This document shows, one piece after another, positions 40,764-63,899 of a stretch of DNA of 64,000 nt (the first letter of the stretch is position 1; the number at the start of each line of letters is the position of its first letter). A model generated the notes under the pieces. That model saw only the letters and a list, made by a program, of their open reading frames with translations. It searched no databases and was not told the DNA's origin. Location of the stretch: positions 24,791-88,790 of the forward strand of contig JBPOJQ010000006.1 of assembly GCA_052033375.1 (NCBI GenBank). Direction: 5' to 3'. The DNA is from Candidatus Magasanikiibacteriota bacterium. GTDB lineage: Bacteria > Patescibacteriota > Patescibacteriia > Magasanikbacterales > UBA922. Position numbers and translations under genes: made by a program.

Positions 40764-40880
40764 GTCCTAAGGAATAGTTTTTAGGTCTTAAATTTTTTTT
40801 ATTTTACGTCATTTAAGTATTAAAGGCAAGAAATTGTCTTTTTAGAATAAATTAGATACTATAGGGTAAATTACGATGCT

Positions 40881-42884: not shown

Positions 42885-42896
42885 GATTTTCATAAA

Positions 42897-44360
42897 ATGG
42901 AAAGCAATAGATTTTTTCAAAAACTAAGTGAAGTATCTCCATTAGTAAACAATTACGCGTTTAATTTTTTTGAAATATCCAAGTATGGGAGTTTTAAAGA
43001 ATCACTTGAGAAAGTAAATCATAAAGATTTCATAAGTAAATGTTACGAAGGTTTTAAAATCGCTCAGGATAAATTAATCGAAAATATTTTGGAGATTGAA
43101 TCAGAAATTGAGAAAATAAAAAGCGAAATCAATGAATATGAAAGAGGTAAAAAGAAATCATCTTTAAAAGATGATTCTCATTATTTAGGAATGAATCGAC
43201 AAAAAAATGACCTAATTTTTCAAAGAGCTTCTTTTAGAGAATTAGCCAATGTTATTGTCTGGACAATTTTTTTAGAACAAAGAACAGATATTAAGAGTTT
43301 TATAAAATTAAGTAACAGTGATGGATATTTAAAAGACAGAGATATTGAAAATTGCATAAAGGTTGCAAGACAAATAAATAATGATAGTAATACTTTTGCT
43401 CTAATTACTGACATTACCTCTACTCTTCATGTTGGAGACCTGATTGTAGTGGAAGAAGGTAAAATATCTGTAACTGAAGTTAAAAGAGATACTAAGATAA
43501 ATAATTTAATATCAAATATTGTTGAATATCCAAAAGATCCTAAAGATACAAAAATTTTTCTTGAAGAACTCATACAAACTTATGGTGTTAAGGGTGTTAA
43601 GCAGCTTCAAAGAAACATGCGTCAAATGATAAGAATGCATAATATTAAAGAGTACATTGAAAAAGATGAAGTTTTTGATTTTGATTTAAATCAAAAGAAA
43701 TATGCTTTTGAGGTTTCAACTCCGGATATAGATTTCATGAAATTCTTAGAAATGGCATTAGATGAGTTTTACAAACATGAAAGAAAAATGTTTGTTTTTC
43801 CTACAGACTGTTGTTTCGTAGGAATTGTAAGAAAAAATGGAGAAAAATCAGAAATAGCTTTTAAATTGGATTTTAAACATGACATATATCATAGACTATT
43901 TAAAAATTGGGACGAATGCGCGTTTAGTAATAAAGATAAGCCAGGATTTACAAAAGAAAATATTCCAGAAATGTTTTTATATCATAAGTTGGATATATAT
44001 TCTTTTAAAGACAAAGTATTTTTTCCGGCACAGCGGCCACTTTTTTTGAGTCTGAAACAGGAATATGTAATTGACTTGTTGACTGACAAGATTGCTATCT
44101 ATATTTATTTTGATCCAGATCGTCTAATAGAAATGGCTAAAGAAAGAAAATTAAAAATGGAATTTGTAAAAAAGACCTCGAAAATAAAAGATCATCCTTA
44201 TAAAAATGAATTTCCTTTTTTCGAAAAGGGTTATATGCAGGTAAGTAATAAGGAAACAAAACTAATAATAGGCTATGGAATTATATTGAGAATAGTTTAT
44301 GAATTGCAGTCTGGATATAATTTGATTGAACATTTAAAAGAAGACCTTAAAAAGATTTAG
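42897..44360 (+). CDS. 487-aa protein of unknown function, second gene of the OLD-family operon; possible PD-(D/E)xK-type core (LHVGDLIVVEEGKISVTEVK)
   Basis: 12-bp gap to the upstream gene. No P-loop or helicase motifs, so not a GajB/UvrD-type partner. GD...EVK spacing is compatible with a restriction-endonuclease-like fold. This is an inference only. Confidence 0.45.
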   Translation: MESNRFFQKLSEVSPLVNNYAFNFFEISKYGSFKESLEKVNHKDFISKCYEGFKIAQDKLIENILEIESEIEKIKSEINEYERGKKKSSLKDDSHYLGMNRQKNDLIFQRASFRELANVIVWTIFLEQRTDIKSFIKLSNSDGYLKDRDIENCIKVARQINNDSNTFALITDITSTLHVGDLIVVEEGKISVTEVKRDTKINNLISNIVEYPKDPKDTKIFLEELIQTYGVKGVKQLQRNMRQMIRMHNIKEYIEKDEVFDFDLNQKKYAFEVSTPDIDFMKFLEMALDEFYKHERKMFVFPTDCCFVGIVRKNGEKSEIAFKLDFKHDIYHRLFKNWDECAFSNKDKPGFTKENIPEMFLYHKLDIYSFKDKVFFPAQRPLFLSLKQEYVIDLLTDKIAIYIYFDPDRLIEMAKERKLKMEFVKKTSKIKDHPYKNEFPFFEKGYMQVSNKETKLIIGYGIILRIVYELQSGYNLIEHLKEDLKKI

Positions 44361-44366
44361 TTTATA

Positions 44367-45149
44367 GTGTTTACTATGAATTTTGATATAGAAGTTTTTA
44401 ATAAAAAAACTCAAGATTTTATTAAAGAAATAGAGCAAGAATTTGGTCATGAGATTAGAGTTGAATACATTGATTTAGAAGAAGGGCATAGTGGTTTTTG
44501 TAATGTCGATGAAACGGGTACACCAACTGTAACATTAAATTCCAATGAAAAAGATGCTGAGAAAATAAAACATTTTTTAATTCATGAAACTTATCATCTT
44601 AGATTACTATTAAATAAGTTTCCAATGTTTGCTTCTGTGGGAAATGCGCAGGTAGTCTATGTGCCAGAGTACTATAAATATATAAGTAACAATTTTTGGG
44701 ATAAAATTGTGCATTCATATTTTTATCCTAAAATAAAAAATGAACTAGATCATGATCCGTATAAACATTTCGAACCAGATTTTAATTTGATTAAAAATAG
44801 TTTATTGGAAAAGAAATTTAGTGAGAACTCAGATGACGTAAAAAAAATGCGAATAATCGGTTGGTATCACCAAATTTGGGCCGAAGGGAAAAAAGAGGAT
44901 CTATTAGAGTATGAGAGTTTAGTTAAGGAGTATCATAATAGTCTCGGTTTAAAAGAGAGCGAAAAAATGATTAAAATATTTGAAAAAAGAGATATTAAAA
45001 ATTCTAAGGATCTGATCGATATTTTCATTGAATTTTTTAATGCTATACACGAGGATAGAGAAATAATTTTAGTAAGTGAAGAGGTTAAATTGAGAGGGAG
45101 TTTTGAATTGCAGGTCGCATATTTTACTGTTTATAAGCTGGATAAATAA
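44367..45149 (+). CDS. HExxH zinc metallopeptidase-like protein (ImmA/IrrE/M78-like motif HETYH), third gene of the operon
   Basis: LIHETYHLRLL motif. 6-bp gap to the upstream gene. Length is 260 aa. Confidence 0.45.
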   Translation: MFTMNFDIEVFNKKTQDFIKEIEQEFGHEIRVEYIDLEEGHSGFCNVDETGTPTVTLNSNEKDAEKIKHFLIHETYHLRLLLNKFPMFASVGNAQVVYVPEYYKYISNNFWDKIVHSYFYPKIKNELDHDPYKHFEPDFNLIKNSLLEKKFSENSDDVKKMRIIGWYHQIWAEGKKEDLLEYESLVKEYHNSLGLKESEKMIKIFEKRDIKNSKDLIDIFIEFFNAIHEDREIILVSEEVKLRGSFELQVAYFTVYKLDK

Positions 45150-45250
45150 GTTCCTATTTCATCCCACAGCCAGAGCTAATAAAAAATACCCTATCCACGG
45201 GTATTTTGTTTTTACATTATCATGATATACTATATGCCTAATTTTAGTAT

Positions 45251-45916
45251 ATGATCGACCAACTCGTCACCTACATCCAATCACTCATCGCGACCTACGG
45301 CGCATGGGGAGTATTCCTCGCAACCATGATTGAGGAAATCATCGCCCCAATCCCCTCACCTATCGTCCCTCTTGCCGCAGGCTTTTTCCTCATCACCCCC
45401 GAGATAACATCACTCATACAAATATTGATCAAAATAGGCGTCGTCATTGCTCTCCCCGTGACCGCGGGCATTACCATAGGATCTGCCTGTGTATATGCGA
45501 TTGGTTTTTTTGGCGGGAAACCAGTACTTGATCGGACCAAAAAATGGCTGGGCTTCGGATGGGACGATGTACAAAAAGTAGAAACTCGTCTCCACAAAGG
45601 AAAGAAAGACGAATGGGTGTTATTTTTTCTCCGCATGATTCCGATTGTACCAGGTGTCGCTATTTCCGGTTTATGTGGCATCATACGCTATCCGTTTTTC
45701 AAATTCATCACTATCACCATGCTCGGGGCATGTCTGCGAGCATTCATTCTCGGAATTATTGGATGGAAAGTGGGAGAAGTATATGGCGCGTTTGCACATA
45801 CGGTAGAAAAGAGTGAAGATTATATTCTATATGCGGTTATCGGCATATTGTTCATATGGGGAGTATATTACTTTTTTAAAAAACGTACATTAAAAAATAA
45901 CATCACACAACCATAA
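45251..45916 (+). CDS. DedA/VTT family membrane protein
   Basis: GAWGVFLATMIEEIIAPIPSPIVPLAAGF is the typical DedA N-terminal motif. Length is 221 aa. Confidence 0.75.
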   Translation: MIDQLVTYIQSLIATYGAWGVFLATMIEEIIAPIPSPIVPLAAGFFLITPEITSLIQILIKIGVVIALPVTAGITIGSACVYAIGFFGGKPVLDRTKKWLGFGWDDVQKVETRLHKGKKDEWVLFFLRMIPIVPGVAISGLCGIIRYPFFKFITITMLGACLRAFILGIIGWKVGEVYGAFAHTVEKSEDYILYAVIGILFIWGVYYFFKKRTLKNNITQP

Positions 45917-45918
45917 AT

Positions 45919-46644
45919 ATGCATCGGTCATCACATGCTATTCTCGTAATCCTCACAGCACTCATCACTCTCGGTGCTGGCTGTACCAACACAGAGATGA
46001 AAAGAACTTACATCTCAAGCGATGGACCCACCGCAGAAGAACTATTTGTAAAAAAAGAATCTACGCCAACTAACAACAATCAATCGACCTCGAGCCCACC
46101 ATCTCAATTACTAGCTACTTCACCTAATTCACCTACTACAACCACAAATTCTATGGAATTCAATGCTTCAAAACATTACACTGCGATACTACATACCAGC
46201 AAAGGTAATATTGAAATCGAACTTAATTTTGGACAAACGCCAAATACGGTAAAAAACTTTGTCGATCTCGCAAGAAAAAATTTCTACGATCAGACAATTT
46301 TCCACCGCGCAATCAACGGGTTCATGATCCAGGGTGGCGACCCCAATGGTGACGGTACAGGCGGACCTGGGTATCGATTCAATGACGAGCCATTCACCGG
46401 GGAATACACGCGTGGCGCAGTGGCTATGGCAAATGCAGGCCCAAACACCAATGGTAGTCAATTCTTTATCATGCATGCCGACAACCCCCTACCAAAAGCC
46501 TATACAATCTTTGGACGTGTAATCAAAGGAATGGAAGTGGTAGATGCGATTGCAACAGACAAAGTCACGATGAGCTCATCAGGAGAAATGTCAAAACCTG
46601 TATCGCCTACATCAATTACAACCGTCGAAATTCAAGAAAAATAG
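45919..46644 (+). CDS. lipoprotein peptidyl-prolyl cis-trans isomerase (cyclophilin type)
   Basis: Lipobox LGAGC. Cyclophilin core FHRAINGFMIQGGDP ... MANAGPNTNGSQFFI. Confidence 0.9.
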   Translation: MHRSSHAILVILTALITLGAGCTNTEMKRTYISSDGPTAEELFVKKESTPTNNNQSTSSPPSQLLATSPNSPTTTTNSMEFNASKHYTAILHTSKGNIEIELNFGQTPNTVKNFVDLARKNFYDQTIFHRAINGFMIQGGDPNGDGTGGPGYRFNDEPFTGEYTRGAVAMANAGPNTNGSQFFIMHADNPLPKAYTIFGRVIKGMEVVDAIATDKVTMSSSGEMSKPVSPTSITTVEIQEK

Positions 46645-52779: not shown

Positions 52780-53385
52780 ATGCGTCAAAAAGTACTCTAC
52801 TTTCTCATTACCATCCTCGGTACCGCAACACTCGTGAGCGGATACTCGTTAGTAGAAAGTCAAAAAGTCTTTAAAGTCGAAAGTAAAAAAAACAATTCAA
52901 TTGAACAACAGTACGACGACGATCAACAACCAACGATCAACGATTACAATACTAAAACAAATGCCGAAAAAATCACGGGTTACAAGTTACAGGATGAAAA
53001 ACAAAAGATATCTACTAACACCGCTACAAAACCAGACACTCCTACAACTACTGAAATAAACCAAGCAGAAATATTCAAAACAAAAGTAACACTCCAGATT
53101 AACGGAAAAAGCTTGTATATCCCCTATCAAGAAAACATGTCAGCAGAAAGTGCGATGAAAGATGCCTATTCACGATATCCCGAATCATTCTGGTATGAAA
53201 GTATCGAATACGGCGGAGATCTCGGCACATTTGTGAAATCAATCAATGGTATAGCAGAAAATTATAGAGAAAAAATGCACTGGATACTCTACGTCAACGA
53301 TAAAAAATCAAACAAAGGAATATCAAAACTCAAACTTAACCCAGACGACATAATCATGTGGAACTATGAAAAAGAAATACTCTAG
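52780..53385 (+). CDS. secreted DUF4430 domain protein
   Basis: Signal peptide. C-terminal ...GGDLGTFVKSINGIAENYREKMHWILYVNDKKSNKGISKLKLNPDDIIMWNY is the DUF4430 pattern. Confidence 0.65.
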   Translation: MRQKVLYFLITILGTATLVSGYSLVESQKVFKVESKKNNSIEQQYDDDQQPTINDYNTKTNAEKITGYKLQDEKQKISTNTATKPDTPTTTEINQAEIFKTKVTLQINGKSLYIPYQENMSAESAMKDAYSRYPESFWYESIEYGGDLGTFVKSINGIAENYREKMHWILYVNDKKSNKGISKLKLNPDDIIMWNYEKEIL

Positions 53386-55480
53386 CCTATTTATTATCCT
53401 TGCCCTATCTTTCTCAATAACCGTGTCGGTACATGCAGAAGATGCTGTTCCAGAAATTATACAACCAGAAGTAATTGATACCCCGACGAGCACACCCGAA
53501 GAAGTAACAGAAAATCAACCAGAAATTCCCGAAGAAACTGTTTCAACTTCAACAGAAGATATTGTACTAGAAATACCTCTCGACTTACCATCCACTACAG
53601 CAAAACTATACGCAGTTGCAAATGGCACAACACTATTCGACGATATAGTACATGTCACCGCATGCAAACCATATGAAGCGTCAGTTGAATACACGCTTAA
53701 TGCAAAATGTCTGATTGACCAGGCAGTTGGGCTGACGACAACCTGGAACTCATATGGAACCGATGCATTCCTCAACTCGGTCAATGAATATACCAATGAT
53801 TTTGCTACAAATAATTTCTGGGGATATTTTATTAATCTAGAATACGCATCAGTAGCATTGAACGCATACACACTAACGGAGGGAGATGAGATATTGATCC
53901 AATACAACACCATTCCACTCAAACTTGAAATATCCACCACCACTCCAGTAGTCGGAGATTCAGTCACTCTATCAATATCAGAATTTGGACTGGATGAATT
54001 CTGGAATCCAATCTGGCTTCCCAGCATGAGCTCTACATTTACTATCAATGAAGAAATAACTTTTGTATCAAGCTCAACAGTCGATCTACCTATAACAACA
54101 ACTTCGCCATATACGATTCGTGTTGAAAAAAATGGATACGTCACGCGGGAAATTACGCTCACTCCCGGCGCAGCACCAACACCAATAACTCCCCCAAGTT
54201 CTGGTGGTGGCGGAAGTGGTGGCACTAGTGTACAGAACACTAGTGGTGCAGAGGGTATGATTAATTTTCTTGACGCAAAACAAAATTCAAATGGTTCATT
54301 TGGTACTACCGCATTCTTGAGTGACTGGGCAGCTATTGCCTATGGTGCATGGACTGGTGACTCTCGTGGTGAGTCAAAACTTACCAATTATCTACTCACC
54401 AACCCAAACCCACTTGATGGCCCAAGCGAAACAACGAACTATGCACGACGCGCAATGGCATTGATGGCACTCGGCATAAATCCCTATACTGGCACACAAA
54501 CAAATTATATTAGTGAAATAATAAAAAAATTTGATGGAACACAATTTGGTGAGGCGGGATTAATCAATGATGATTTATTCGCACTCGCTCCCCTACTTCA
54601 TTCGGGATATTCAACGAACGACGCACTCATCGTAAGTACCACCAAATACATTATTGCAAACCAAGATACATACGGTTCATTCGGAAGTATCGACCTTACC
54701 GGAGCTGCAGTGCAGACACTTTCAGAGCTGTCATCTATAGAGGGAGTAAGCGAAGCTCTCACCAAAGCAAAAAATTATCTGACATTAGCACAACAAGCTG
54801 ACGGAGGATTTGGAAATGTATATGCAACTGGGTGGGTCATGCAAGGAATTGCAGCGCTTGGTGAAAATACTACAAATTGGAATAGTAATGGAAACACGCC
54901 AGTAACATATATTGAAAACAAGCAAGCTTCTGATGGTGGAATGCTCGTAGGAGATACTGATGCAAATAGAATCTGGGCAACATCATACGCGCTTCCTGGA
55001 GTATTAGGTAAACCATGGCACACTATTCTCACATCATTCAGTAAGCCTAATAGTAGTACAGGTTCCACAAGTAGTAGTAACACCACGGAATCGACATCGA
55101 GTACCACTACAACTACTTCAACGCCAACCATCATGACTACTCCGACCTCCACACCTACATCTACTACTACAACATCGACAACTACGACTGATAGTGTAAT
55201 TGAAGAACCAATACTGTACACTCACACCGAAGTAACTCAAGAAAACGCTCAAATTCCAACACAACCTAAACCAGTGAAAGCAGTAGTACTCGGTGAGAAA
55301 GAAGAAAATACTGAAATAGCCAATGAACCAATTATCGAGGAAAATATAGAAAACAGCGAGACTGAGGAAGTAAACAATGAAAGGAACGAAAATCTGCAGA
55401 CAAAAAAATACCTATTCATAACTTCGCTTATTATATTCCTCACTCTAATCGGGTACATGGCTTTCAAACATAAATCTTGA
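53366..55480 (+). CDS. cell-surface protein with prenyltransferase/terpene-cyclase-like alpha/alpha-toroid repeats, Thr/Ser-rich stalk and C-terminal TM anchor
   Basis: Signal peptide. Repeats of the type NGSFGTTAFLSDWAAIAYGAW and DGGFGNVYATGWVMQGIAALG. A low-complexity T/S-rich linker and a C-terminal hydrophobic helix. Confidence 0.6.
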   Translation: MKKKYSSLFIILALSFSITVSVHAEDAVPEIIQPEVIDTPTSTPEEVTENQPEIPEETVSTSTEDIVLEIPLDLPSTTAKLYAVANGTTLFDDIVHVTACKPYEASVEYTLNAKCLIDQAVGLTTTWNSYGTDAFLNSVNEYTNDFATNNFWGYFINLEYASVALNAYTLTEGDEILIQYNTIPLKLEISTTTPVVGDSVTLSISEFGLDEFWNPIWLPSMSSTFTINEEITFVSSSTVDLPITTTSPYTIRVEKNGYVTREITLTPGAAPTPITPPSSGGGGSGGTSVQNTSGAEGMINFLDAKQNSNGSFGTTAFLSDWAAIAYGAWTGDSRGESKLTNYLLTNPNPLDGPSETTNYARRAMALMALGINPYTGTQTNYISEIIKKFDGTQFGEAGLINDDLFALAPLLHSGYSTNDALIVSTTKYIIANQDTYGSFGSIDLTGAAVQTLSELSSIEGVSEALTKAKNYLTLAQQADGGFGNVYATGWVMQGIAALGENTTNWNSNGNTPVTYIENKQASDGGMLVGDTDANRIWATSYALPGVLGKPWHTILTSFSKPNSSTGSTSSSNTTESTSSTTTTTSTPTIMTTPTSTPTSTTTTSTTTTDSVIEEPILYTHTEVTQENAQIPTQPKPVKAVVLGEKEENTEIANEPIIEENIENSETEEVNNERNENLQTKKYLFITSLIIFLTLIGYMAFKHKS

Positions 55481-55565
55481 TATAATCCACAAGCTCACAG
55501 CACGCTGGATAACCATAATCGCAGTTAATCCTGGTAATCTGTGCTCCAATAACCTACACAAAAAT

Positions 55566-56102
55566 ATGAAAAAATACCTTATCCTAGTTATCGCCTTAGC
55601 AACATACGGTGTCCTAGCGCGTCTCATGCCCCATTCACCGAACTTTGTGCCAATTACCGCTCTCGCACTCGTAGGAGGGCTATATATGCCCCGCAAACTG
55701 GCATATATCGTGCCAATGGCTGCAATGCTCGTAAGTGACCTATTTATCGGCCTGTACCACCCACTAGTTATGGTCTCAGTATACGGGTGTCTCCTACTCA
55801 CCACCTACATGGGTACCTGGGCGAAAAAACATAAAAACTTCGGGACTATCGTTGGGATCACATTCGCAAGCTCAATGCTATTCTACTTCGCAACCAATAC
55901 CATGGTTTGGGCATTTGGAGCGCTCTACCCACGTACACTCACAGGACTTCTCGAAAGTTATACTCTTGCACTCCCCTTCTTTAGAAATAGTCTCTTGAGC
56001 GACTTCTTCTACACTGGAGTATTGGTCGGAGGAATTGAAGCTGTACGATTTTATAGTTCAAAACTAAAAACGCAAAATTCAAAACTGAAACTAGAAATAT
56101 AA
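55566..56102 (+). CDS. hypothetical integral membrane protein (about 5 TM; possible ECF-type substrate-capture component)
   Basis: 178 aa, hydrophobic. It is adjacent to the DUF4430 and surface-protein genes. Confidence 0.45.
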   Translation: MKKYLILVIALATYGVLARLMPHSPNFVPITALALVGGLYMPRKLAYIVPMAAMLVSDLFIGLYHPLVMVSVYGCLLLTTYMGTWAKKHKNFGTIVGITFASSMLFYFATNTMVWAFGALYPRTLTGLLESYTLALPFFRNSLLSDFFYTGVLVGGIEAVRFYSSKLKTQNSKLKLEI

Positions 56103-56178: not shown

Positions 56179-56368
56179 AATCCTCAATTACTTCGTAGTG
56201 GACAAAATAATATTCGGCTTCGGGGTTTTGTATATATATTCAGTATCTCATTTTCCCCGTCGGCCGCTTTTTTATACCACAGATACTTTTCACAATACAC
56301 AGATTCCACAATACACAAAAGCATCTCATACAACAAAGCGACCATCACAACACTATTTCGCGTTGTGT

Positions 56369-56725
56369 CTAGCGGACAAAAGAAGCCCGCCTTTGAAAGA
56401 ACATCTCATTGCACACAGGACACCGCCTCTCATGCGGGAGTCGGACGAACTCACTGACCCGGATCTCATTGATCCCGACAGACTTCCCACACACAGACGT
56501 CTGGTGCCTGCCGACGTATGCGAGCAGGTGGAAGATACTGATCTCCTGCCCATGGCACATGTCGTCATGGAGGAGCCGGACACAGCGGGGGCACCTCCCC
56601 ACGTCCGGGAGCTGAGCGAACTCACCCAGATCGACGATCGGATCACGATGCGTGGCCCTGCCACACGCATCGCCGAACATGTTGTAGATTCCCCGATGAA
56701 TCCACTGGTATTTCATGTGAATCAT
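56369..56725 (-). CDS. small HNH-endonuclease-like zinc-ribbon protein in GC-rich island
   Basis: Strong RBS AAGGAG-7-ATG. CPRC ... HDDMCHG ... N ... H ... CPVC, an arrangement consistent with an HNH motif bracketed by two CxxC pairs. Length is 118 aa. Confidence 0.4.
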   Translation of the reverse strand: MIHMKYQWIHRGIYNMFGDACGRATHRDPIVDLGEFAQLPDVGRCPRCVRLLHDDMCHGQEISIFHLLAYVGRHQTSVCGKSVGINEIRVSEFVRLPHERRCPVCNEMFFQRRASFVR

Positions 56726-57350
56726 CTCGATTCTCCTTGGCAGCCTCTGATGGCGGGATTGCCAGCTGCGCCAGATGTACATACTATACAGCCAGCGCAG
56801 TAGACAATAGTTGATAGATGAATCTACCAAAAAGACAAACAATTGTCAAGATCTAGGCATAAAGTATGAACTACCACCGGCTGAACGCCGGTGGTTTCGT
56901 TCTGCTGGCTACGCCAGCGCAAGCATTCGTGACTATATGAAGGTATGAGAGTCCAATGGGGGGGTTCGGGGGGGTGAAAACTGTCTGAGCTACGAGAGTA
57001 GAATCATACACTAATCTTAGTGAGGCGAGTTTTTTCACCCCCGAAAGTTTTTGGTACTTTTTGGTTACAAAAAGTACGGATAAGGTACTCCGTATTGCTT
57101 TCAAGCTAGATGGTCACCACAGTGTCTATTCTACTCTCCGAAGAAAAGCTAAACGCAATTCCAAGAGCTTCGCGTGTAAACGCACTCACCTGTCTGACGC
57201 TGGTGATTTTTAGGGTAAAAAAATTGAAGACCCTGTACTTGTGGTACAGGGTGCCAGTTAGACGCTAACTGGAAAACGTGTGGCAGGATTGCCGGATCAA
57301 GGACTAAGTTCCAAGGATCCAAAAGAACCCAAGGTTCAAAGTGAAAAGGA

Positions 57351-58004
57351 CTACTTGCGGGGCTGCACGAACACCCAGCGGCTGTCAGGGTCCCAGACGT
57401 AGTCGGGGTAGCCATTGCAGCAGTAGAGCCACAGACCGTCACCGCTGCGCTCGACGTAGAACACGTCCAGGTACCCGCCCGAGTCAGAGATCGGCTCCAT
57501 ACCAATGAGGAGCAACTTGCCCATGGGCTGATCCTTGTACTGCAGGCGCAGCTGGGGACCGACCTCAGCCGGGCAGCGTTCGAGACCGAGCTCGATCGCA
57601 CGCTTGTAGATTTCACGACGCGTGGCACCCTTCGCGAAGCCGAGTTCACCGACCGAGACATTGACCAGGTCGAGTTCGACCTCCTCGGTCGCCACCGTAA
57701 AGGCAGGATTCCCGAGGATATCGGTCGCAACTCCGCCGACCTTCCCGCCCGCCTTCACGATGGCCAGACGGAACTGACGAGCATTCTTCATGCCCGTGCC
57801 GAGCTTGATCGTCTTCCAGACTTTGAAGTCGGATTTTGACGGAGAGAGGCCGGACAGGAATTTCTTGAGCCCATTCGGGTTCTCGATCCAGCCCTGCATG
57901 ACATAGCAAGGCATGTCAGGAAGATTCTCCGCGATCCTCGCGATCAACTTTGCAGTCTGCTTATCCATGGCGGTTTTTCCTATTGGTTTTCGCCATTTAT
58001 CCAC
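57351..58004 (-). CDS. hypothetical protein, GC-rich (horizontally acquired-looking)
   Basis: 217 aa. Composition is strongly GC-shifted. No motif recognised. Confidence 0.4.
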   Translation of the reverse strand: MDKWRKPIGKTAMDKQTAKLIARIAENLPDMPCYVMQGWIENPNGLKKFLSGLSPSKSDFKVWKTIKLGTGMKNARQFRLAIVKAGGKVGGVATDILGNPAFTVATEEVELDLVNVSVGELGFAKGATRREIYKRAIELGLERCPAEVGPQLRLQYKDQPMGKLLLIGMEPISDSGGYLDVFYVERSGDGLWLYCCNGYPDYVWDPDSRWVFVQPRK

Positions 58005-58237: not shown

Positions 58238-59656
58238 TTATCCATACTCTTCCTCATCTGTCACAATCTCCTCACCCGAATCAGTCACAACACGCTTTTT
58301 TTGCCCATTTGCATGAGTCGTAGGAGCTTCGGAAGCAGGCGCAGGTATAAATTCCACCGGCAATCCAGAAGGAGGTTCTGCAGCCTTGTTTGCTGCTTTC
58401 TGAAGCAAAGGTACTTTTACATGAGACATTGGGAAATGCCAAATAGTAGCGAGCTCTTCAATATTCAATACATACGCATGTACTTCAAGATCCATTGAAC
58501 GACTCCGATAGGCTTCAATATATTTTGCTTTTTTCTTATCTGAAGAAGCTTGTGCGCCGACTACAATAGAATTAGCAGTAGGAATATTGAATTGACTCAC
58601 TGATCCGATGAGCGCAGTGACTCCGCGCGAAGGATTAAATACCTCTTTGCGTGCAAGATAGACTGCACGGATATTAGTCTCAAAACCAATTTTTTGTATC
58701 TTTTTTTCCATTGACTCTACCAATTTTACCTGTCCAGGAGTCATATACTTCAATTGATTCTTATCTTTTGACTCTTCATGTTCTTCATGATGAGCACCAC
58801 CCATTCCCGCTATCTGTCTCCCCGCTTCCTGCAGAAGCCCCTTCCCTTCGGTTATAAGAAAATTATCAGTAATAAAACTCAATGGTGACCCATGGCCATG
58901 CCCATGACTATCTTCTTCCCCAATAAATTCTTTAATTTTTGCAATTACTGATTCTTTCCAGGAATTATCTATTGGTCGTACCAAAATCTGAAACCACATC
59001 TGTTCCCCATGCCCAATCCGAGAAAAACTCTCGAGCATCGTACCCATCGGATCCTTCAATACAGTGTCTTTTGAAATACTATGTTCGAATTCTTCATAAC
59101 TCCGAATAGGAAAAGCAGCATTTTCTGCAAGAGCAAAATCAGCAGCCCATACATCATACTCAGCATTGGGAAAACGTGTGGGGGCGGCTGTAGTATAATC
59201 CTCGACTTCAGTAATTTCTGCATCAGGATACTGTGCATAAATCGCTGTCTCAATCAAATCACGATATTGCTCTTCAGTCCATACTAAAAACTGAATGTAC
59301 CCTTCGATACTAATCACTTCAAAGCTAAACCATTTTTGCTTATACCCCTGATAAAATTTTCCTTTCAAATCCGGCTTACTAAATACACCCGCCAAATGAC
59401 TAAAAAGCTGTTCGACCGCTTTTGGAGTCTGTACATTAAGCTGCGGAATATCAATCGCAAGCACGACATATTTCCAATGATGCATTGTCTGATGCACCTT
59501 CATATGATGATAGGTATCAAGAATTTCTTTCAGCAAGAAATTAACGATCGGTACCCAGAGAAAAATAGCAAATAACTGAATAAGGATTATCAACGGTGGC
59601 TGATCGATAAAATCAAGAATTGATGAAAAATTGAAATCAAATAAGCCGAACTCCAT
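58238..59656 (-). CDS. hypothetical membrane-anchored protein sharing an N-terminal domain with the TraG/VirD4-like ATPase at 33287-35863
   Basis: N-terminal TM. A domain ...KVHQTMHHWKYVVLAIDIPQ...AQYPDAEITEVEDY aligns to the N-terminus of the 33287 protein. Length is 472 aa. Confidence 0.5.
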   Translation of the reverse strand: MEFGLFDFNFSSILDFIDQPPLIILIQLFAIFLWVPIVNFLLKEILDTYHHMKVHQTMHHWKYVVLAIDIPQLNVQTPKAVEQLFSHLAGVFSKPDLKGKFYQGYKQKWFSFEVISIEGYIQFLVWTEEQYRDLIETAIYAQYPDAEITEVEDYTTAAPTRFPNAEYDVWAADFALAENAAFPIRSYEEFEHSISKDTVLKDPMGTMLESFSRIGHGEQMWFQILVRPIDNSWKESVIAKIKEFIGEEDSHGHGHGSPLSFITDNFLITEGKGLLQEAGRQIAGMGGAHHEEHEESKDKNQLKYMTPGQVKLVESMEKKIQKIGFETNIRAVYLARKEVFNPSRGVTALIGSVSQFNIPTANSIVVGAQASSDKKKAKYIEAYRSRSMDLEVHAYVLNIEELATIWHFPMSHVKVPLLQKAANKAAEPPSGLPVEFIPAPASEAPTTHANGQKKRVVTDSGEEIVTDEEEYG

Positions 59657-59669
59657 ACAAAATCAAATT

Positions 59670-59852
59670 CTAGTGATGTCCCCCGCCAGAAGAAGGGTTG
59701 ACGAGCTTGTAGACAATCGGATATATCACCAACACCACAACAGCTGAAAGCCACCAGCCGAGTGTTCCTGCGACATACCCCGCAAGAAACACAACAACAA
59801 ACGCAGCAGTAGCTAGAAAAGCGATAATGTGACGAGTAGAATTGTCGGTCAT
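59670..59852 (-). CDS. small 2-TM membrane protein
   Basis: MTDNSTRHIIAFLATAAFVVVFLAGYVAGTLGWWLSAVVVLVIYPIVY. The ORF extends to 59900. Confidence 0.4.
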   Translation of the reverse strand: MTDNSTRHIIAFLATAAFVVVFLAGYVAGTLGWWLSAVVVLVIYPIVYKLVNPSSGGGHH

Positions 59853-59974
59853 AGAGAATATATTATGAAAAAAGTATAGCACAGATGCATCAAATTCCAA
59901 AATACACTATTCAAATTAAAAACCCCCAGAAACATACATGTATACGGGGGTTTTTATGTATCAATCCTGAGGTA

Positions 59975-60955
59975 TTACTTTCGATGAGACCAATTGTGCC
60001 AACTCACCAAAAGCGAAGACGCAATAAATATTGAAGAATACGTACCAAAGAAAATACCAACAATCAACGCAAGAACAAAATATCTGATAGATTCTCCTCC
60101 AAAGAAAAATAATGAAGTGAGTACGATGAGAACGGTGACCGAAGTATTAATCGAACGCACAAATGTTTCATTAAACGCACGATTCACCAATCCAATGAAA
60201 TCACTCGTGCCATAACGAGTCAAATTTTCACGAATTCGATCAAAGACGACAATAGTGTCATTGATAGAATATCCAAGAATAGTAAGAAGTGCGACGACAA
60301 ACGGAATACCTACTTCCACACCATAGAAATGCCCGAGCAATGCAAATACTCCAAGTGTAATGATAATATCATGAAACAGTGCAACAATAGCTGCGGCACC
60401 ATATTTCCATGAAGCAACCGGACGTGAAACTTTTCTGAAAGTATACGCAATATAGAGACCAATCGTGAAGACCACGAATAGTACCGCCTGGATTGAACGC
60501 TCTTTTAGTGACTCGCTGATAGTAGCACCTACCGTCTCCACGCTTTTTTCTAATACACGATTTTCTGGAGTAGAAGAAGTCGCCCCTGTCTCAAATTTTG
60601 TACGTGCATCGCTAAGAATTTTCTGATGCTCTGTCTCAGTGACAAAACGGAGACGAAGCAAATATCCATCTTCCCCGACTGGCTGCACGACAGACGCTCC
60701 ATAGGTCTCTTGAGGCAATATTGACTGCATGTCTTCGAGTGAAGGTCGTGTGTGTGTAAAACCAAGCTCAATTGCTGATCCTCCAGTAAAATCAATTCCT
60801 GGCTTCAATCCATACATAACCAAACTCACTACACTCACCACCACAAAAAACAATGAGATCAGGAAAAAATAATTTCGTTTTGCTACAAATGCAATATTCA
60901 TATGATTATGATTGTTCAGGCGAGTGACCTCCGCCAAGGAATAATTTTCCGCCAT
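59975..60955 (-). CDS. secF: protein translocase subunit SecF
   Basis: MAENYSLAEVTRLNNH... resembles the E. coli SecF N-terminus. GLKPGIDFTGGS. 6 TM. The start at 60955 overlaps the secD 3' end by about 50 nt. An alternative start MNIAF lies at 60901. Confidence 0.8.
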   Translation of the reverse strand: MAENYSLAEVTRLNNHNHMNIAFVAKRNYFFLISLFFVVVSVVSLVMYGLKPGIDFTGGSAIELGFTHTRPSLEDMQSILPQETYGASVVQPVGEDGYLLRLRFVTETEHQKILSDARTKFETGATSSTPENRVLEKSVETVGATISESLKERSIQAVLFVVFTIGLYIAYTFRKVSRPVASWKYGAAAIVALFHDIIITLGVFALLGHFYGVEVGIPFVVALLTILGYSINDTIVVFDRIRENLTRYGTSDFIGLVNRAFNETFVRSINTSVTVLIVLTSLFFFGGESIRYFVLALIVGIFFGTYSSIFIASSLLVSWHNWSHRK

Positions 60956-62951
60956 CGCGTTTTTTGAACCATGGCACGACGAATCTGAGCAATACACGAG
61001 TAACAGTAATCGCACTAAACATACTCACCAAAATACCTATAATCAAAGTAACCGCAAATCCTTTGACAAAGCTCGTGCCCAACCAAATCAATAATGCGCA
61101 GGTGATAAGTGTCGATACATTTCCATCTCGAATCGAAGTCCATGCCCGTTTGAATCCCTCTTCAACCGCAACTTTGAGACTTTTTCCACGCTGCAATTCT
61201 TCCTTCATACGTTCAAAGATAAGGACATTCGCATCCACCGCCATTCCAACAGAAAGAATAAATCCTGCAATTCCCGCAAGCGTAAGCGTAACTCCAATAA
61301 ACTTGAATATTGCAAGTGTAAGTACGATATAGAGCGAAAGAGAGATAACTGATAAAAATCCAGGCAATCGATAATAGAAGAACATGAAGAGCATGATCAC
61401 CAACACACCAATCACACCAGCCTTCACACTCATAGTGACTGATTCCTGTCCGAGAGAAGCACCTACCGTCTGCTGACTTGCTAATTCCACGGGAACAGGT
61501 AATGCTCCAGCATTGAGACGCTGTGTCAACGTGCGAGCCTCCTGTACATTACCACTACCAGTAATTACCGCCCGTCCATCTCTGATAACTGTCTGGACAG
61601 TCGGCGCACTGATAATCTCGCCATCGAGGAAAATAGCAACTGTCTTTCCCAAATTTCGTTCTGTAATTTCAGAAAATAATTTGGTACCCTCATCATTAAA
61701 ATTCAAAGCTACTTGTACAGCACCTGTCTGCTGATCAGTAACAACTTCAGACCGTGCAAGCTGTTTTCCTGATAAGCCAGTCTCTTTCCATTGATCGACC
61801 GGGGGGACAATATCTTCTTTTGCCTGAGTTTCAATCAAGATTCTCCATACTTCATATTCTTTTGCAATACGTTCATCTTGCCTGAAAATAATATGAAAAC
61901 CAAATTGCGTCTCGACAGGTCCGATAATTTGCCCGTTCTGTGCACTGAAAAGTGCGGTTTCAAATTCAGGAACAGTAAGACCTGCAGGTACCCATCCCAA
62001 ATTCCCCTGATTCGACGATACCGTCGGATCAGTCGAATTCGCTGTTGCAAGCTCAGCAAAATTATCACCCGTAGCCTGCGCATAGATCTCCTCAGCCTTT
62101 GCTCGAGCTTCTTCTTTGGTATACTGAGGCGCATTACAATTAGTGGCACCGAGATAACAAATCAAAATATGACTTGCAAGCACTTCTTTTCCCCCATCTT
62201 GCTCACGTCCACGTTTCAAAATATTGTATCCATCCGCTGTCTCAACCAATTTTGCTGAAACCATTCCTTCAGTCGAGCTTGCAGCCCATGAATAAATTTC
62301 AGGATATATGTTAGTCGCGCTCACGTATGAAAGATAACCCCCGTTCACCTTACTCTGTTCATCTTCTGATAATTCACGCGCAACATCTTCGATTTTTTCA
62401 CCTTTCTTTACGCGACTAAGAATTTTCTCAGCTCGTTTTTTTGCATCAACATTATATGCGCGCATTGCTTGTTCTTCTTCAGCAGTCAATTCTCGAGCAG
62501 GTTCAGTATTTTGTTCTTTGAATTCCAAAATAGGAGTCTGGCCAATCAAATTAGTAGCTTCAGTGATATCTTGCATTCCCGGTAAATCCACTGTGAGACG
62601 ATATGAGTCACCAACTTTACTTGTTTGCACTTGAGGTTCTGATACTCCGATTCCACTAACTCGACGTTCAATAACATCGCGCACACCTTCAAGTGCTCCT
62701 GCTCGTTCTGTTTCACCAATCGAACTCATGTCTGCTTCGTATACCAAATGCGCTCCACCCTGAAGATCAAGACCTAATTGGAATGGTTTTTCAGACACCT
62801 CAGGGATACCTAATCCAGAGGAATTCAGCCATCGGATAAGCTTATTTGCAGGTTGCGGGTATACAAAAGTACCCGATACAATCAAAAGCGCGAATATTCC
62901 AACAATTCCCCATTTAATTTTCGATCGAATGTCTGTGTTTCTGTGGCTCAT
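60906..62951 (-). CDS. secD: protein translocase subunit SecD carrying two tandem parvulin-type (PpiC) PPIase domains in its periplasmic region
   Basis: SecD N-terminal TM and periplasmic head. C-terminal 6-TM bundle. Two inserted segments with parvulin signatures (…NGGYLSYVS…EIYSWAA… and ASHILICY…GNLGWVPAGLTVPEFETALFSAQNGQIIGPVETQFGFHIIF). Confidence 0.85.
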   Translation of the reverse strand: MSHRNTDIRSKIKWGIVGIFALLIVSGTFVYPQPANKLIRWLNSSGLGIPEVSEKPFQLGLDLQGGAHLVYEADMSSIGETERAGALEGVRDVIERRVSGIGVSEPQVQTSKVGDSYRLTVDLPGMQDITEATNLIGQTPILEFKEQNTEPARELTAEEEQAMRAYNVDAKKRAEKILSRVKKGEKIEDVARELSEDEQSKVNGGYLSYVSATNIYPEIYSWAASSTEGMVSAKLVETADGYNILKRGREQDGGKEVLASHILICYLGATNCNAPQYTKEEARAKAEEIYAQATGDNFAELATANSTDPTVSSNQGNLGWVPAGLTVPEFETALFSAQNGQIIGPVETQFGFHIIFRQDERIAKEYEVWRILIETQAKEDIVPPVDQWKETGLSGKQLARSEVVTDQQTGAVQVALNFNDEGTKLFSEITERNLGKTVAIFLDGEIISAPTVQTVIRDGRAVITGSGNVQEARTLTQRLNAGALPVPVELASQQTVGASLGQESVTMSVKAGVIGVLVIMLFMFFYYRLPGFLSVISLSLYIVLTLAIFKFIGVTLTLAGIAGFILSVGMAVDANVLIFERMKEELQRGKSLKVAVEEGFKRAWTSIRDGNVSTLITCALLIWLGTSFVKGFAVTLIIGILVSMFSAITVTRVLLRFVVPWFKKRDGGKLFLGGGHSPEQS

Positions 62952-63074
62952 AAGTTAGTGGTCACTATCAATTAGAATGAGCGGTATTTTACGATACATT
63001 GTCTATAGAGTCAAGTTCAGATATACACCCCAAATCAGGCCCGTATGGTATATACAGAAAATGTTTTAATTTAC

Positions 63075-63899
63075 CTAAGGGCTCCCTAGTGGGGGGACGA
63101 CTATCATCGCGGTGCGTCTACCGACTATCGGCTCATGATCCCCGGTCTCATAATCTCGAAAGGATGCCTCAAAATTATGATATGAATAGGTAAATCCCTG
63201 CCCCAGGCGAGTACCCGGATCATTGGTAATAATATGATCCTTCGTATCATCATACCCAATTACAACGAGCATATGTCGCTCAGGTCCGCCGTTCAAAAAA
63301 TTCGGATTATCAAGAATTTGCCCATCAAATGGAATGATAAGGACATTCCCCGCTGCAAGCTCATGCTTCACATCATCGAGAGTAATATCATATTCCACTC
63401 GACCACCGGTATAGCCATAAAATTCTTTCAGTAATCGACCATACGTATCTTCGGCCGACGTATCACGGTAGCTGCCATACTGACGCTCTTCCCAATTAGA
63501 CATACTGGTTATCTCCTCAAGTGCTTCTTGTCTGGTGAGATCTCTGCCATTTGCCCATTTCCACGCCATAATAACTGATGCTTCCTCACATCCATCCTGC
63601 TGACGCTGGTCGCTCCAATCACCAAATGGAGCTTGGGGAGTAAATGGAACATCAAGTAGAACTTTTGTTGGTAATTCTACAACCGAAGGAGTGCTGGTAG
63701 ATGTAGCCTGGGTTTCTACGCCTTCTGTATCTTCTTCATCTGTCCGAACAGGTGAAGAAGATGAAATTGTAATTGGGGTATTATCTACCGAAGAAATTAC
63801 TGGTGGACGACTTTGTGAAAAAAAATAATTAGCTGCAAAAAAACTTGCAACAAGGACTGCTGAACCGAGCGCTAATATACTTATGAGACGTTTAAACAT
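63075..63899 (-). CDS. membrane-anchored papain-like cysteine peptidase domain protein (C39-like/PF13529-type)
   Basis: N-terminal TM and Ser/Thr-rich linker. A domain with QQDGCEEASVIMAWKWANG, where the Cys follows a Q and a His lies downstream. Confidence 0.55.
   Translation of the reverse strand: MFKRLISILALGSAVLVASFFAANYFFSQSRPPVISSVDNTPITISSSSPVRTDEEDTEGVETQATSTSTPSVVELPTKVLLDVPFTPQAPFGDWSDQRQQDGCEEASVIMAWKWANGRDLTRQEALEEITSMSNWEERQYGSYRDTSAEDTYGRLLKEFYGYTGGRVEYDITLDDVKHELAAGNVLIIPFDGQILDNPNFLNGGPERHMLVVIGYDDTKDHIITNDPGTRLGQGFTYSYHNFEASFRDYETGDHEPIVGRRTAMIVVPPLGSP

What the first reader, a model, noticed from the sequence alone, without database searches (positions are those of the whole stretch)
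60906..62951. SecD with two inserted parvulin (PpiC) domains; secF start overlaps secD by ~50 nt
The periplasmic region of SecD contains two segments with parvulin-type rotamase signatures. This would fuse a PrsA/PpiD-like folding catalyst directly to the SecDF motor. SecDF normally recruits such chaperones in trans. The best-supported SecF start (MAENYSLAEVTRLNNH, similar to the E. coli SecF N-terminus) overlaps the secD 3' end, suggesting translational coupling.
Basis: partly seen in the sequence, partly recalled or inferred. Interest (0 to 1): 0.5.

Follow-up and report, generated by a model that had tools for sequence, protein, structure and literature searches.

The report
SecD carrying a nested parvulin pair
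The protein-export motor subunit SecD of this candidate-phyla (Patescibacteria) bacterium carries two prolyl-isomerase/chaperone domains, one nested inside the other, so a folding helper that other bacteria recruit as a separate protein sits at the export exit; the proposed overlapping secF start is probably wrong.

Summary
The 681-aa ORF at 60906-62951 (minus strand) is a bona fide SecD. About 230 residues (about 150-388) are inserted between the P1-base strand and the P1-head. The insert holds two PpiC/parvulin domains (Pfam Rotamase E 1.7e-39; each half is significant alone).

- **Topology.** AF2 models, covariation and the pattern of histidine retention agree that the domains are nested, not side by side. 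The outer domain (157-250 plus strand 365-374) is circularly permuted and has lost both catalytic histidines. The inner domain (257-360) has canonical order and keeps the H-[D/E]-[T/S]-H network in 150/150 aligned relatives.
- **Distribution.** Among 80 species-level Patescibacteria loci, 29 have two domains, 14 have one permuted domain that still looks catalytic, 2 have a degenerate single domain, 8 are Peri-/Gracilibacteria variants, and 27 have none.
- **Literature.** No paper describing this fusion was found.
- **Likely function.** A translocon-tethered foldase/chaperone, analogous to PrsA, PpiD or SurA, which act in trans. This is inferred, not shown.
- **secF start.** The overlap claim fails. 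In seven close relatives SecF starts at a conserved MNI... 2-11 nt after the secD stop. In the window that is ATG 60901, 4 nt after TAA. The upstream ATG at 60955 is not conserved.

The parts
60906..62951 (-). secD CDS, 681 aa, stop TAA at 60906-60908
62862..62918 (-). TM1 of SecD (residues 12-30). The N-terminus is basic, so it faces the cytoplasm.
   Evidence: Hydropathy scan: the only hydrophobic segment before residue 507. AF2 helix 5-30.
62508..62789 (-). P1-base N-terminal part with the GG motif (residues 55-148), ending in strand ILEFKE (142-147)
   Evidence: Pfam Sec_GG 55-76 and SecD_1st 89-148. Alignment with insert-less SecDs.
61788..62504 (-). Whole insertion (residues about 150-388). 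It replaces the 10-25-aa base-to-head linker of insert-less SecDs.
   Evidence: MAFFT of SecDs with 0, 1 or 2 parvulin domains. Foldseek aligns the 221-aa P1 domain 3aqo over 431 columns.
62202..62483 (-). Outer parvulin domain (dom1), helices and strands alpha1 to beta4, residues 157-250. The position of the second catalytic His is N243.
   Evidence: Rotamase E 8e-16, profile 9-95, no beta1. AF2 pLDDT about 90. N243 replaces Pin1 H157.
61872..62183 (-). Inner parvulin domain (dom2), canonical order beta1 to beta4, residues 257-360. Key residues: H261, S306-x-D308, L318, T326, F330, T348, H353.
61830..61859 (-). Strand 365-374 (EYEVWRILIE): the permuted beta1' that completes dom1. R370 occupies the first-His position.
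   Evidence: Unbroken AF2 strands 241-264 and 351-374. Covariation peak at i+j=613-618. Joint states at 243/370 are N/R 111, V|I|A/A 80, H/H 3.
62136..62159 (-). C265 and C272 in dom2: a probable lineage-specific disulfide
   Evidence: Both are Cys in 70 of 150 relatives and never one alone. This is the top covarying pair.
61494..61787 (-). P1-head (residues 389-486)
   Evidence: Pfam SecDF_P1_head E 1.3e-28.
60978..61433 (-). TM2-TM6 of SecD (residues 507-658), with D573 in GMAVDANVLIFERMKEEL
   Evidence: Hydropathy scan. D573, N575, E580 and R581 are invariant in 150/150. The motif matches T. thermophilus GAAVD340GNVLSFERIKEEL; D340 is esAspIV (PMC5974789).
59975..60901 (-). secF CDS as revised: 308 aa, start ATG 60901 (MNIAFVAKRNYFF...)
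   Evidence: TIGR00966 278.4 bits, profile start at this Met +2. Conserved MNI.. start in L001-L007. D and R align to T. thermophilus D637 and R671.
60899..60908 (-). secD-secF junction TAA-TCAT-ATG (4-nt spacer)
   Evidence: Sequence. Relatives have 2-11-nt spacers.
60953..60955 (-). Judged not to be the conserved start.
   Evidence: It arises from the secD codons GAT-GGC (Asp-Gly). There is no equivalent ORF in relatives. The similarity to E. coli SecF is within chance.
62986..63014 (-). Promoter-like TTGACT-17-TAAAAT, 35 nt upstream of secD (weak evidence)
   Evidence: 10/12 match, but the number of such sites in the region (11) is not above the shuffles (8.5 +/- 3.2).

Best explanation
This is the secD-secF operon of a Magasanikbacteria-type Patescibacterium.

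Shown:
- SecD has the full motor: TM1, P1-base, P1-head and TM2-6 with the essential TM4 Asp. SecF carries the essential Asp and Arg.
- At the connector between P1-base and P1-head, on the outer face of the membrane, SecD carries a module of about 230 residues made of two parvulin (PpiC) domains.
- The outer domain is a circularly permuted parvulin. Its beta1 strand comes after beta4, and in this protein it lacks both catalytic histidines.
- The inner domain is a canonical parvulin sitting at the tip of the outer domain's beta4-beta1' hairpin. It retains the catalytic hydrogen-bond network.

Inferred:
- When the proton-driven P1-head captures an unfolded chain leaving SecYEG and swings away, the attached parvulin pair receives the chain.
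- The histidine-less outer domain would act as a binding or holdase surface, like SurA P1 or the PpiD parvulin.
- The inner domain would act as a prolyl isomerase.
- The module would thereby do in cis what PrsA, PpiD/YfgM or SurA do in trans.

secF is translated from ATG 60901, 4 nt after the secD stop, probably by coupled reinitiation.

For: Motor intact: D573 is invariant in 150/150 relatives. SecF D and R align to T. thermophilus D637 and R671, residues defined as essential in PMC5974789.

Outside location: residues 31-506 form one loop between TM1 and TM2, homologous to the periplasmic P1 domain. The co-occurring Cys265/Cys272 pair (70/70) fits an oxidising compartment.

Nested and permuted topology:
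- The one-domain relative's AF2 model (pLDDT 87; 92-97 in the domain) shows beta4 225-237, a 2-residue turn, then beta1' 240-251.
- The window's AF2 model shows unbroken strands 241-264 and 351-374 with pLDDT about 90.
- APC-corrected mutual information peaks only at register i+j=613-618. It shows no peak for the hairpin alternatives.
- Positions 243 and 370 covary as N/R, hydrophobic/A and H/H.
- H261 and H353 are both kept in 150/150 relatives, while positions 243 and 370 both lack His.
- Moving the trailing strand to the front extends the Pfam match from profile 15-96 to 1-96.

Selection: dN is 0.11-0.21 for dom2 and 0.21-0.30 for dom1, against saturated dS of at least 1.2.

Conservation: every one of the 120 best clusters in each of three searches carries Rotamase plus SecD domains.

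Functional analogy: PpiD contacts SecD (PMC9643414). SurA binds the periplasmic regions of SecDF (PMC9987972). The PPIase Mpn444 crosslinks to SecD (10.1101/2024.09.05.611430).

secF start.
Against: - No biochemical data exist. PPIase and chaperone activity are inferred from sequence only.
- In the window protein and its closest relatives the dom2 pocket is altered: M326T, F321V and D317N, versus M in 139/150 relatives. Isomerase activity may therefore be reduced in this particular lineage.
The nested topology rests on DSSP strings, covariation and conservation, and the covariation is partly confounded by clade structure.
- pTM is only 0.49, so the position of the parvulin pair relative to the P1-head cavity and SecYEG is unknown.
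- Whether these genomes lack stand-alone PrsA/PpiD/SurA could not be tested. Only the 64-kb window was checked, and it has none.
- The start codon actually used for secF cannot be proven from sequence.
Confidence: 0.7

Rival explanations
1. The parvulin pair is catalytically irrelevant. It would serve only as a passive chaperone or spacer, or as a steric regulator or lever of the P1-head swing. Examples would be extending the head's reach across a thicker envelope, or docking to another envelope protein. No prolyl isomerisation would be involved.
For: - Chaperone functions of SurA and PpiD are largely independent of PPIase activity (established knowledge). The importance of the PpiD parvulin domain is questioned in PMC9643414.
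- Dom1 has lost both histidines.
- The window's own dom2 has M326T, D317N and F321V in the proline pocket.
- The insertion sits exactly at the mobile base-to-head connector.
Against: - The H-[D/E]-[T/S]-H network of dom2 is kept in 150/150 two-domain proteins, and L-M-F pocket residues in 136/150.
- Both histidines are kept in the one-domain family: H227 is invariant and H247 is at least 90% conserved.
- Such strict retention of catalytic residues is hard to explain for a mere spacer.
Confidence: 0.2
2. SecF starts at the upstream ATG 60955 (MAENYSLAEV...), overlapping secD by 50 nt. The 18 extra residues would form a cytoplasmic N-terminal extension like that of E. coli SecF.
For: - The ATG is in frame with secF, with no intervening stop.
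- HMMER starts the alignment to E. coli SecF (5mg3_F) at query residue 15, aligned to E. coli residue 11.
- There is no strong Shine-Dalgarno sequence before either ATG. GGAGG lies 26 nt upstream of 60901.
Against: - In seven relatives SecF starts at MNI.. just after the secD stop.
- In L001, L004 and L007 the frame is closed upstream. In the others the upstream peptide is unrelated and has no start codon.
- The region is conserved in the secD frame (KRDGG.LFLG.GHS.EQS). The ATG is a by-product of the Asp-Gly codons.
- The similarity to E. coli is reached by 5.9% of shuffles.
- The TIGR00966 profile begins at the downstream Met.
Confidence: 0.08
3. The fusion is an artefact: a metagenome misassembly or a frameshift joining a parvulin gene to secD.
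For: The window comes from an uncultured-organism assembly. The identical protein P0001 is seen on a single 102-kb contig.
Against: - The same architecture is found in at least 360 independent 90%-identity clusters from NCBI, JGI, ENA and Logan assemblies. These include contigs above 1 Mb and 53 of 80 species-level genomes.
- The ORF is uninterrupted.
- SecD sequence flanks the insert on both sides.
- AF2 folds it with pLDDT 84.
Confidence: 0.01

Closest known systems
Canonical SecD/SecDF (T. thermophilus SecDF, PDB 3AQP/5XAN/5YHF; E. coli SecD)
   Different: A module of about 230 residues holding two parvulin domains replaces the short base-to-head linker. No solved SecDF has this, and insert-less Patescibacteria SecDs are only 430-500 aa long.
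SurA (E. coli periplasmic chaperone, PDB 1M5Y)
   Same: Two parvulin domains in one chain, one inactive and substrate-binding (P1) and one active (P2). It gives the best PDB sequence hit (E 1.4e-21). SurA binds the periplasmic regions of SecDF (PMC9987972).
   Different: SurA is soluble. It has N- and C-terminal chaperone segments that are absent here (no SurA_N hit). Its parvulins are in canonical order and sequential, not permuted or nested.
PrsA (Bacillus and other Firmicutes lipoprotein foldase, PDB 4WO7/1ZK6)
   Different: PrsA is a separate, dimeric lipoprotein with an NC chaperone domain. The NCBIfam PrsA models hit only the parvulin part, far below cut-off (72 bits against 343).
PpiD-YfgM (E. 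coli, PDB 8ZHT)
   Same: An inner-membrane-anchored parvulin chaperone positioned over the SecYEG exit. [quoted passage not shown] Its parvulin domain is non-catalytic, like dom1 here.
   Different: It is a separate single-pass protein with SurA-like N and C domains and a TPR partner. It has one parvulin, in canonical order.
Mpn444 of Mycoplasma pneumoniae
   Same: A surface PPIase/chaperone of a wall-less, genome-reduced bacterium that crosslinks to SecD (bioRxiv 10.1101/2024.09.05.611430).
   Different: A separate trimeric lipoprotein, not a fusion.
One-parvulin SecD of Kerfeldbacteria and related Patescibacteria (for example P0241)
   Same: Same insertion point. The same N-terminal junction helix as dom1 (dom1 HMM matched over 1-99, 65-80 bits). 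The trailing beta1' strand is present.
   Different: A single permuted domain that still has both catalytic histidines (H227, H247). There is no nested second domain.

Membership tests
SecD (TIGR01129 / SecDF of the RND superfamily) | Profile match above the curated cut-off | tested here: met
   TIGR01129 scores 396.7 bits against cut-off 244.4. The match falls in two stretches because of the insert.
SecD (TIGR01129 / SecDF of the RND superfamily) | Topology of TM1, large outside P1 (base plus head), then five TM helices | tested here: met
SecD (TIGR01129 / SecDF of the RND superfamily) | Essential proton-path residues: TM4 Asp in SecD; TM10 Asp and TM11 Arg in SecF | tested here: met
   D573 is invariant in 150/150 relatives. 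SecF D and R align to T. thermophilus D637 and R671. The residues are defined in PMC5974789.
SecD (TIGR01129 / SecDF of the RND superfamily) | Partner secF adjacent in the same operon | tested here: met
   secF lies at 59975-60901, 4 nt downstream. TIGR00966 scores 278.4 bits against cut-off 160.
SecD (TIGR01129 / SecDF of the RND superfamily) | PMF-dependent stimulation of protein export | not testable with these tools
   Needs biochemistry or genetics.
Parvulin / PpiC-type PPIase domain (PF00639), inner domain 257-360 | Profile match above the gathering score over the full domain, in canonical order | tested here: met
   Rotamase 84.6 bits (GA 21.7), profile 1-94/97. Rotamase_3 94.1 bits.
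Parvulin / PpiC-type PPIase domain (PF00639), inner domain 257-360 | Parvulin fold (four-stranded sheet plus helices) | tested here: met
Parvulin / PpiC-type PPIase domain (PF00639), inner domain 257-360 | Catalytic network equivalent to Pin1 H59, C113 (Asp in Par14), T152 and H157, plus the proline pocket L122/M130/F134 | tested here: inconclusive
   The network is present (H261, D308, T348, H353) and kept in 150/150 relatives. The pocket is L318/T326/F330, whereas M is found at 326 in 139/150. The D308 = C113 equivalence rests on the S-x-[C/D] motif and on my own knowledge; MAFFT placed it one column off.
Parvulin / PpiC-type PPIase domain (PF00639), inner domain 257-360 | Measured cis-trans isomerase activity | not testable with these tools
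   Needs an enzyme assay.
Parvulin / PpiC-type PPIase domain (PF00639), outer domain 157-250 + 365-374 | Profile match above the gathering score | tested here: met
   Rotamase 59.2 bits (GA 21.7), but only over profile 9-95: beta1 is missing at the N-terminus.
Parvulin / PpiC-type PPIase domain (PF00639), outer domain 157-250 + 365-374 | Canonical strand order beta1-alpha1-3-beta2-alpha4-beta3-beta4 | tested here: not met
   Beta1 is supplied after beta4, a circular permutation. Support comes from the AF2 DSSP strings, covariation and the re-permutation test.
Parvulin / PpiC-type PPIase domain (PF00639), outer domain 157-250 + 365-374 | Dual-histidine catalytic motif | tested here: not met
   N243 and R370 occupy the two His positions. 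H/H survives in only 3 of 273 relatives.
PrsA / SurA / PpiD chaperone families | N- and C-terminal chaperone module (SurA_N / PrsA NC domain) flanking the parvulin domain(s) | tested here: not met
   No SurA_N-type Pfam hit at E <= 0.1. The NCBIfam PrsA, SurA and PpiD models match only the parvulin part and fall far below cut-off: 72/343, 60/394 and 55/493 bits.
PrsA / SurA / PpiD chaperone families | Stand-alone protein: lipoprotein, soluble, or single-pass anchor | tested here: not met
   The parvulins are internal to SecD.

The most novel reading that the evidence does not exclude
In two large Patescibacteria lineages (Magasanik-/Uhr-/Falkow-/Kerfeldbacteria and Peri-/Gracilibacteria), SecD may have become a self-contained 'pull-and-fold' machine.
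- A circularly permuted parvulin was inserted at the moving base-to-head connector of P1.
- A second, canonical parvulin later became nested in its beta4-beta1' hairpin, either by tandem duplication with strand exchange or by insertion.
- The proton-driven swing of the P1-head then physically hands the emerging chain to a covalently attached holdase and prolyl isomerase.
- This would replace stand-alone PrsA/PpiD/SurA in these reduced genomes.

As far as my searches show, this would also be the first described circularly permuted parvulin and the first covalent SecDF-foldase fusion.
Probability: 0.35. Interest if true: 0.7.

Novelty: new variant of a known kind. Interest (0 to 1): 0.55.

Why it matters
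How exported proteins pass from the Sec channel to folding helpers on the far side of the membrane is still unclear. The evidence that SecDF recruits parvulin chaperones (PpiD, SurA, Mpn444) comes from crosslinks, low-resolution EM and AlphaFold models.

A natural, widely conserved covalent fusion of parvulin domains to the mobile P1 domain is independent evolutionary ('Rosetta-stone') evidence for that partnership. It also fixes the point of attachment, the base-to-head connector.

The series of SecDs with zero, one or two parvulin domains in related genomes is a ready-made system for testing what the foldase adds to the motor. The nested, circularly permuted parvulin is also a clean example of domain evolution by duplication and strand exchange.

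For annotation, these proteins are currently labelled only 'SecD'. The secF start in this window should be set at 60901.

Tried and rejected
- **Overlapping secF start at 60955.** Rejected on comparative grounds and because the E. coli similarity is within chance.
- **Side-by-side hairpin topology** (241-252 pairing with 255-266; 351-362 pairing with 364-375). There is no covariation peak for it and no turn in the AF2 DSSP string.
- **BLASTP of dom1 against dom2.** No hit. The two domains are related only at profile level.
- **Foldseek against afdb50,** to list organisms with the same architecture. The library was not available.
- **The listing of cluster members** on ten divergent long variants, to see whether phyla outside Patescibacteria have the fusion. 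Only one carried a name, Peribacterales, so distribution outside Patescibacteria remains untested.
- **Literature searches.** 'SecD + parvulin', 'SecD + Patescibacteria + peptidyl-prolyl', 'SecD + PpiC + fusion', 'SecD + rotamase' and 'parvulin + circular permutation' found no description of the fusion or the permutation. The library lacks most subscription journals, so absence is not proof.
- **Promoter and terminator scan around the operon.** Counts were not above the shuffles. One 10/12 promoter-like site lies upstream of secD.
- **dN/dS.** dS is saturated, so only dN values and an upper bound on the ratio are meaningful.
- **Other parvulin genes in the window.** tblastn found none. This says nothing about the rest of the genome.
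- **Exact strand register from the DSSP end-points.** This could not be resolved without model coordinates.
Full report
**1. What is at the coordinates**

The window holds an uninterrupted 681-aa ORF on the minus strand, 60906..62951, with an ATG start and a TAA stop.

- It is SecD. NCBIfam TIGR01129 scores 396.7 bits against a cut-off of 244.4.
- Pfam finds Sec_GG (55-76), SecD_1st (89-148), SecDF_P1_head (389-486) and SecD_SecF_C (488-656).
- A hydropathy scan finds one TM segment at 12-30 and none again until 507-658. Residues 31-506 are therefore a single loop homologous to the periplasmic P1 domain.
- The TM4 motif GMAVD573ANVLIFERMKEEL is invariant at D573, N575, E580 and R581 in 150 relatives. 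It matches T. thermophilus GAAVD340GNVLSFERIKEEL.
- The downstream SecF carries the residues aligned to T. thermophilus D637 and R671. D340, D637 and R671 are the essential esAspIV, esAspX and esArgXI (PMC5974789). The motor therefore looks intact.

**2. The two parvulin matches are real**

- Between SecD_1st and the P1-head, Pfam reports Rotamase (PF00639) with E 1.7e-39 in two stretches, and Rotamase_3 with E 6.2e-38.
- Scanned separately, residues 150-256 give Rotamase E 8e-16. Residues 254-374 give Rotamase_3 E 1.1e-26 and Rotamase E 9.7e-24.
- The best solved relatives by sequence are SurA (E 1.4e-21, both of its parvulin domains) and PrsA.
- An AF2 model built on a 150-sequence alignment has mean pLDDT 84.2, about 90 in the insert.
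- Aligned with insert-less Patescibacteria SecDs, the module replaces a 10-25-residue linker. That linker lies between the base strand ILEFKE (142-147) and the first head strand W-K-x-T-G-L (388-393). This is the connector about which the P1-head swings (PMC5974789).

**3. The domains are nested, and the outer one is circularly permuted**

*The clue*

- Pfam matches the first domain only from profile position 9, so beta1 is missing. It matches the second from position 1.
- A further beta-strand (EYEVWRILIE, 365-374) follows the second domain.
- Related SecDs with a single parvulin match only from profile position 8-15, and a strand '..RASHIL..' follows the domain.

*One-domain family (120 sequences)*

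- The beta4 His (H227) is invariant and the trailing-strand His (H247) is at least 90% conserved.
- The AF2 model (pLDDT 87.3; 92-97 in the domain) shows beta4 225-237, a two-residue turn, then strand 240-251. This is a permuted parvulin whose beta1 follows beta4 as a hairpin.
- Moving the trailing strand to the front extends the Pfam match from profile 15-96 to 1-96.

*The window protein*

- The model has no turn. Residues 241-264 and 351-374 are two unbroken 24-residue strands. They can only be satisfied by pairing with each other.

*Independent support from 273 two-domain sequences (Neff 154)*

- APC-corrected mutual information, averaged along anti-diagonals, peaks at i+j = 613-618. Values there are 0.04-0.076 over 21-24 pairs, against a background mean of -0.0015.
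- It is flat for both hairpin alternatives.
- The pair 243/370 takes the joint states N/R (111), V|I|A/A (80) and H/H (3: P0012, L022, L024). This is the behaviour expected of the two positions of a dual-histidine site.
- Position 206 (beta2 of dom1) covaries with 367.
- H261 and H353 are both kept in 150/150 relatives, whereas N243 and R370 both lack His.

*Conclusion and caveats*

- Dom2 (257-360) is a canonical parvulin sitting at the tip of the beta4-beta1' hairpin of dom1 (157-250 plus 365-374).
- No coordinates were available, and clade structure inflates covariation. The register-shift control keeps the same columns, and only the predicted register stands out.

**4. Catalytic status**

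- The typed Pin1 sequence was verified as identical to PDB 1PIN.
- Alignment gives dom2 H261 = H59, L318 = L122, T326 = M130, F330 = F134, T348 = T152 and H353 = H157.
- By the S-x-[C/D] motif, D308 = C113, equivalent to Asp74 of Par14. This equivalence is from my own knowledge; MAFFT placed it one column off.
- The H-[D/E]-[T/S]-H network is present in 150/150 relatives and the L-M-F pocket in 136/150.
- The window and its nearest relatives have M326T, D317N and F321V, so activity in this sub-lineage is uncertain.
- Dom1 has R370 and N243 in place of the histidines and is most likely non-catalytic. It resembles SurA P1 and the PpiD parvulin domain (established knowledge; PMC9643414).
- C265 and C272 are both Cys in 70/150 relatives and never singly. 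They are the top covarying pair. This suggests a lineage-specific disulfide, which fits an outside location.
- Both domains are under purifying selection. dN is 0.21-0.30 for dom1 and 0.11-0.21 for dom2, compared with 0.09-0.17 for the P1-head. dS is saturated at 1.2 or more.

**5. Distribution**

The identical protein is on record once, from NCBI on a 102-kb contig. The closest named relative, at 84% identity, is a Candidatus Magasanikbacteria SecD, MBP9732408.1.

All 120 best clusters in each of three searches carry Rotamase plus SecD Pfam domains and are annotated only as 'SecD'. The three queries were the window protein, an Uhrbacteria protein and a Kerfeldbacteria protein.

Among 80 species-representative loci, all Patescibacteria:

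| SecD insert state | Loci | Lineages |
|---|---|---|
| Two parvulin domains | 29 | Magasanik-, Falkow-, Uhrbacteria and others |
| One permuted domain | 14 | Kerfeldbacteria and others |
| One degenerate domain | 2 | - |
| Canonical domain preceded by a divergent region | 8 | Peri-/Gracilibacteria, several fused as SecDF |
| No parvulin domain | 27 | Saccharibacteria, Doudna-, Azam-, Berkel-, Giovannonibacteria and others |

- The single domain of one-domain forms matches the dom1 HMM over its full length, including the junction helix. It also matches the dom2 HMM from about position 20. It therefore sits in dom1's place but keeps a catalytic-type sequence.
- The simplest history (inference) is a permuted parvulin insertion, followed by tandem duplication with strand exchange or by a nested insertion, and then decay of the outer active site.
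- In an exhaustive search of 1.84 billion cluster representatives, 74 of the best 150 carry at least one parvulin-like domain.
- All ten long variants tested (776-1119 aa) have Rotamase plus SecD domains.
- Whether any lie outside Patescibacteria could not be established.

**6. secF**

- However, TIGR00966 begins at the downstream Met.
- In L001-L007, SecF begins MNI[SAPI][FI].. 2-11 nt after the secD stop.
- In L001, L004 and L007 the frame is closed upstream. Elsewhere the upstream peptide is unrelated.
- The overlapped DNA is conserved in the secD frame (KRDGG.LFLG.GHS.EQS), and the ATG comes from the Asp-Gly codons.
- The similarity to the E. coli SecF N-terminus scores 22, a value reached by 5.9% of shuffles.
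- The supported gene is 59975..60901 (308 aa), with the junction TAA-TCAT-ATG. Coupling by reinitiation is plausible but unproven.

**7. Mechanism, comparison and novelty**

*Mechanism*

- Shown: an intact SecDF with an extracytoplasmic nested parvulin pair at the mobile connector of P1.
- Inferred: the P1-head captures the emerging chain (PMC5974789, PMC6028853) and passes it to the attached holdase-like dom1 and isomerase-type dom2.

*Comparison*

- This mirrors, in cis, the contact of PpiD with SecD (PMC9643414), the binding of SurA to the periplasmic regions of SecDF (PMC9987972), and the crosslinking of Mpn444 to SecD (10.1101/2024.09.05.611430).
- It is not a member of the PrsA, SurA or PpiD families, because their N/C chaperone module is absent.

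*Novelty*

- Five literature searches found no description of the fusion or of a permuted parvulin.
- I rate it a new variant of a known kind, of moderate-to-good interest.

Noticed in passing
window 40020-46000: GC falls to 0.27-0.34 against a background of about 0.41, and GC skew turns positive. The change begins right after the only Rfam hit in the window, a tRNA at 40020-40090 (+). This may be a tRNA-flanked island. It holds ORFs 40881-42884, 42897-44360 and 44367-45149, all on the + strand.
   Followed up: no
window 56200-58000: GC rises to 0.53-0.60. ORFs 56198-56803 (+), 57149-57730 (-) and 57351-58004 (-) have no Pfam match.
   Followed up: partly
window 58238-59900: Directly downstream of secF lie two ORFs on the same strand. 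One is a 76-aa hydrophobic protein (59670-59900, ending GGGHH). The other is a 472-aa protein (58238-59656) with an N-terminal TM segment and an HGHGHG stretch. Neither has a Pfam family.
   Followed up: partly
window 63075-63899: A Peptidase_C39_2-like protein (E 2.9e-13) with an N-terminal hydrophobic segment lies just upstream of secD on the same strand.
   Followed up: no
window 52780-56102: A cluster of two DUF4430 proteins (52780-53385 and 53366-55480; the latter also has weak cobalamin-binding and terpene-cyclase-like hits) and a DUF6580 protein (55566-56102).
   Followed up: no
L001, L002, L004, L011, L012, L017, L020, L022, L026 (GTDB genome records): Records titled 'uncultured Gammaproteobacteria bacterium' carry SecDs that are 44-83% identical to the window protein and have the Patescibacteria-type parvulin insert. 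The organism names in these records look wrong.
   Followed up: no
L033, L034, L036, L041 (Peri-/Gracilibacteria); P0371, P0376, P0388 and others: In these lineages SecD and SecF are fused into one protein of about 1020-1100 aa that also carries the parvulin insert. Other variants of 775-940 aa have about 100-200 extra, unassigned residues before or after the parvulin domain.
   Followed up: partly
P0012, L022 and L024 (relatives), positions equivalent to window SecD residues 243 and 370: A few two-domain SecDs still have histidines at both dual-His positions of the outer, permuted domain. In those lineages both parvulins may be catalytic.
   Followed up: partly
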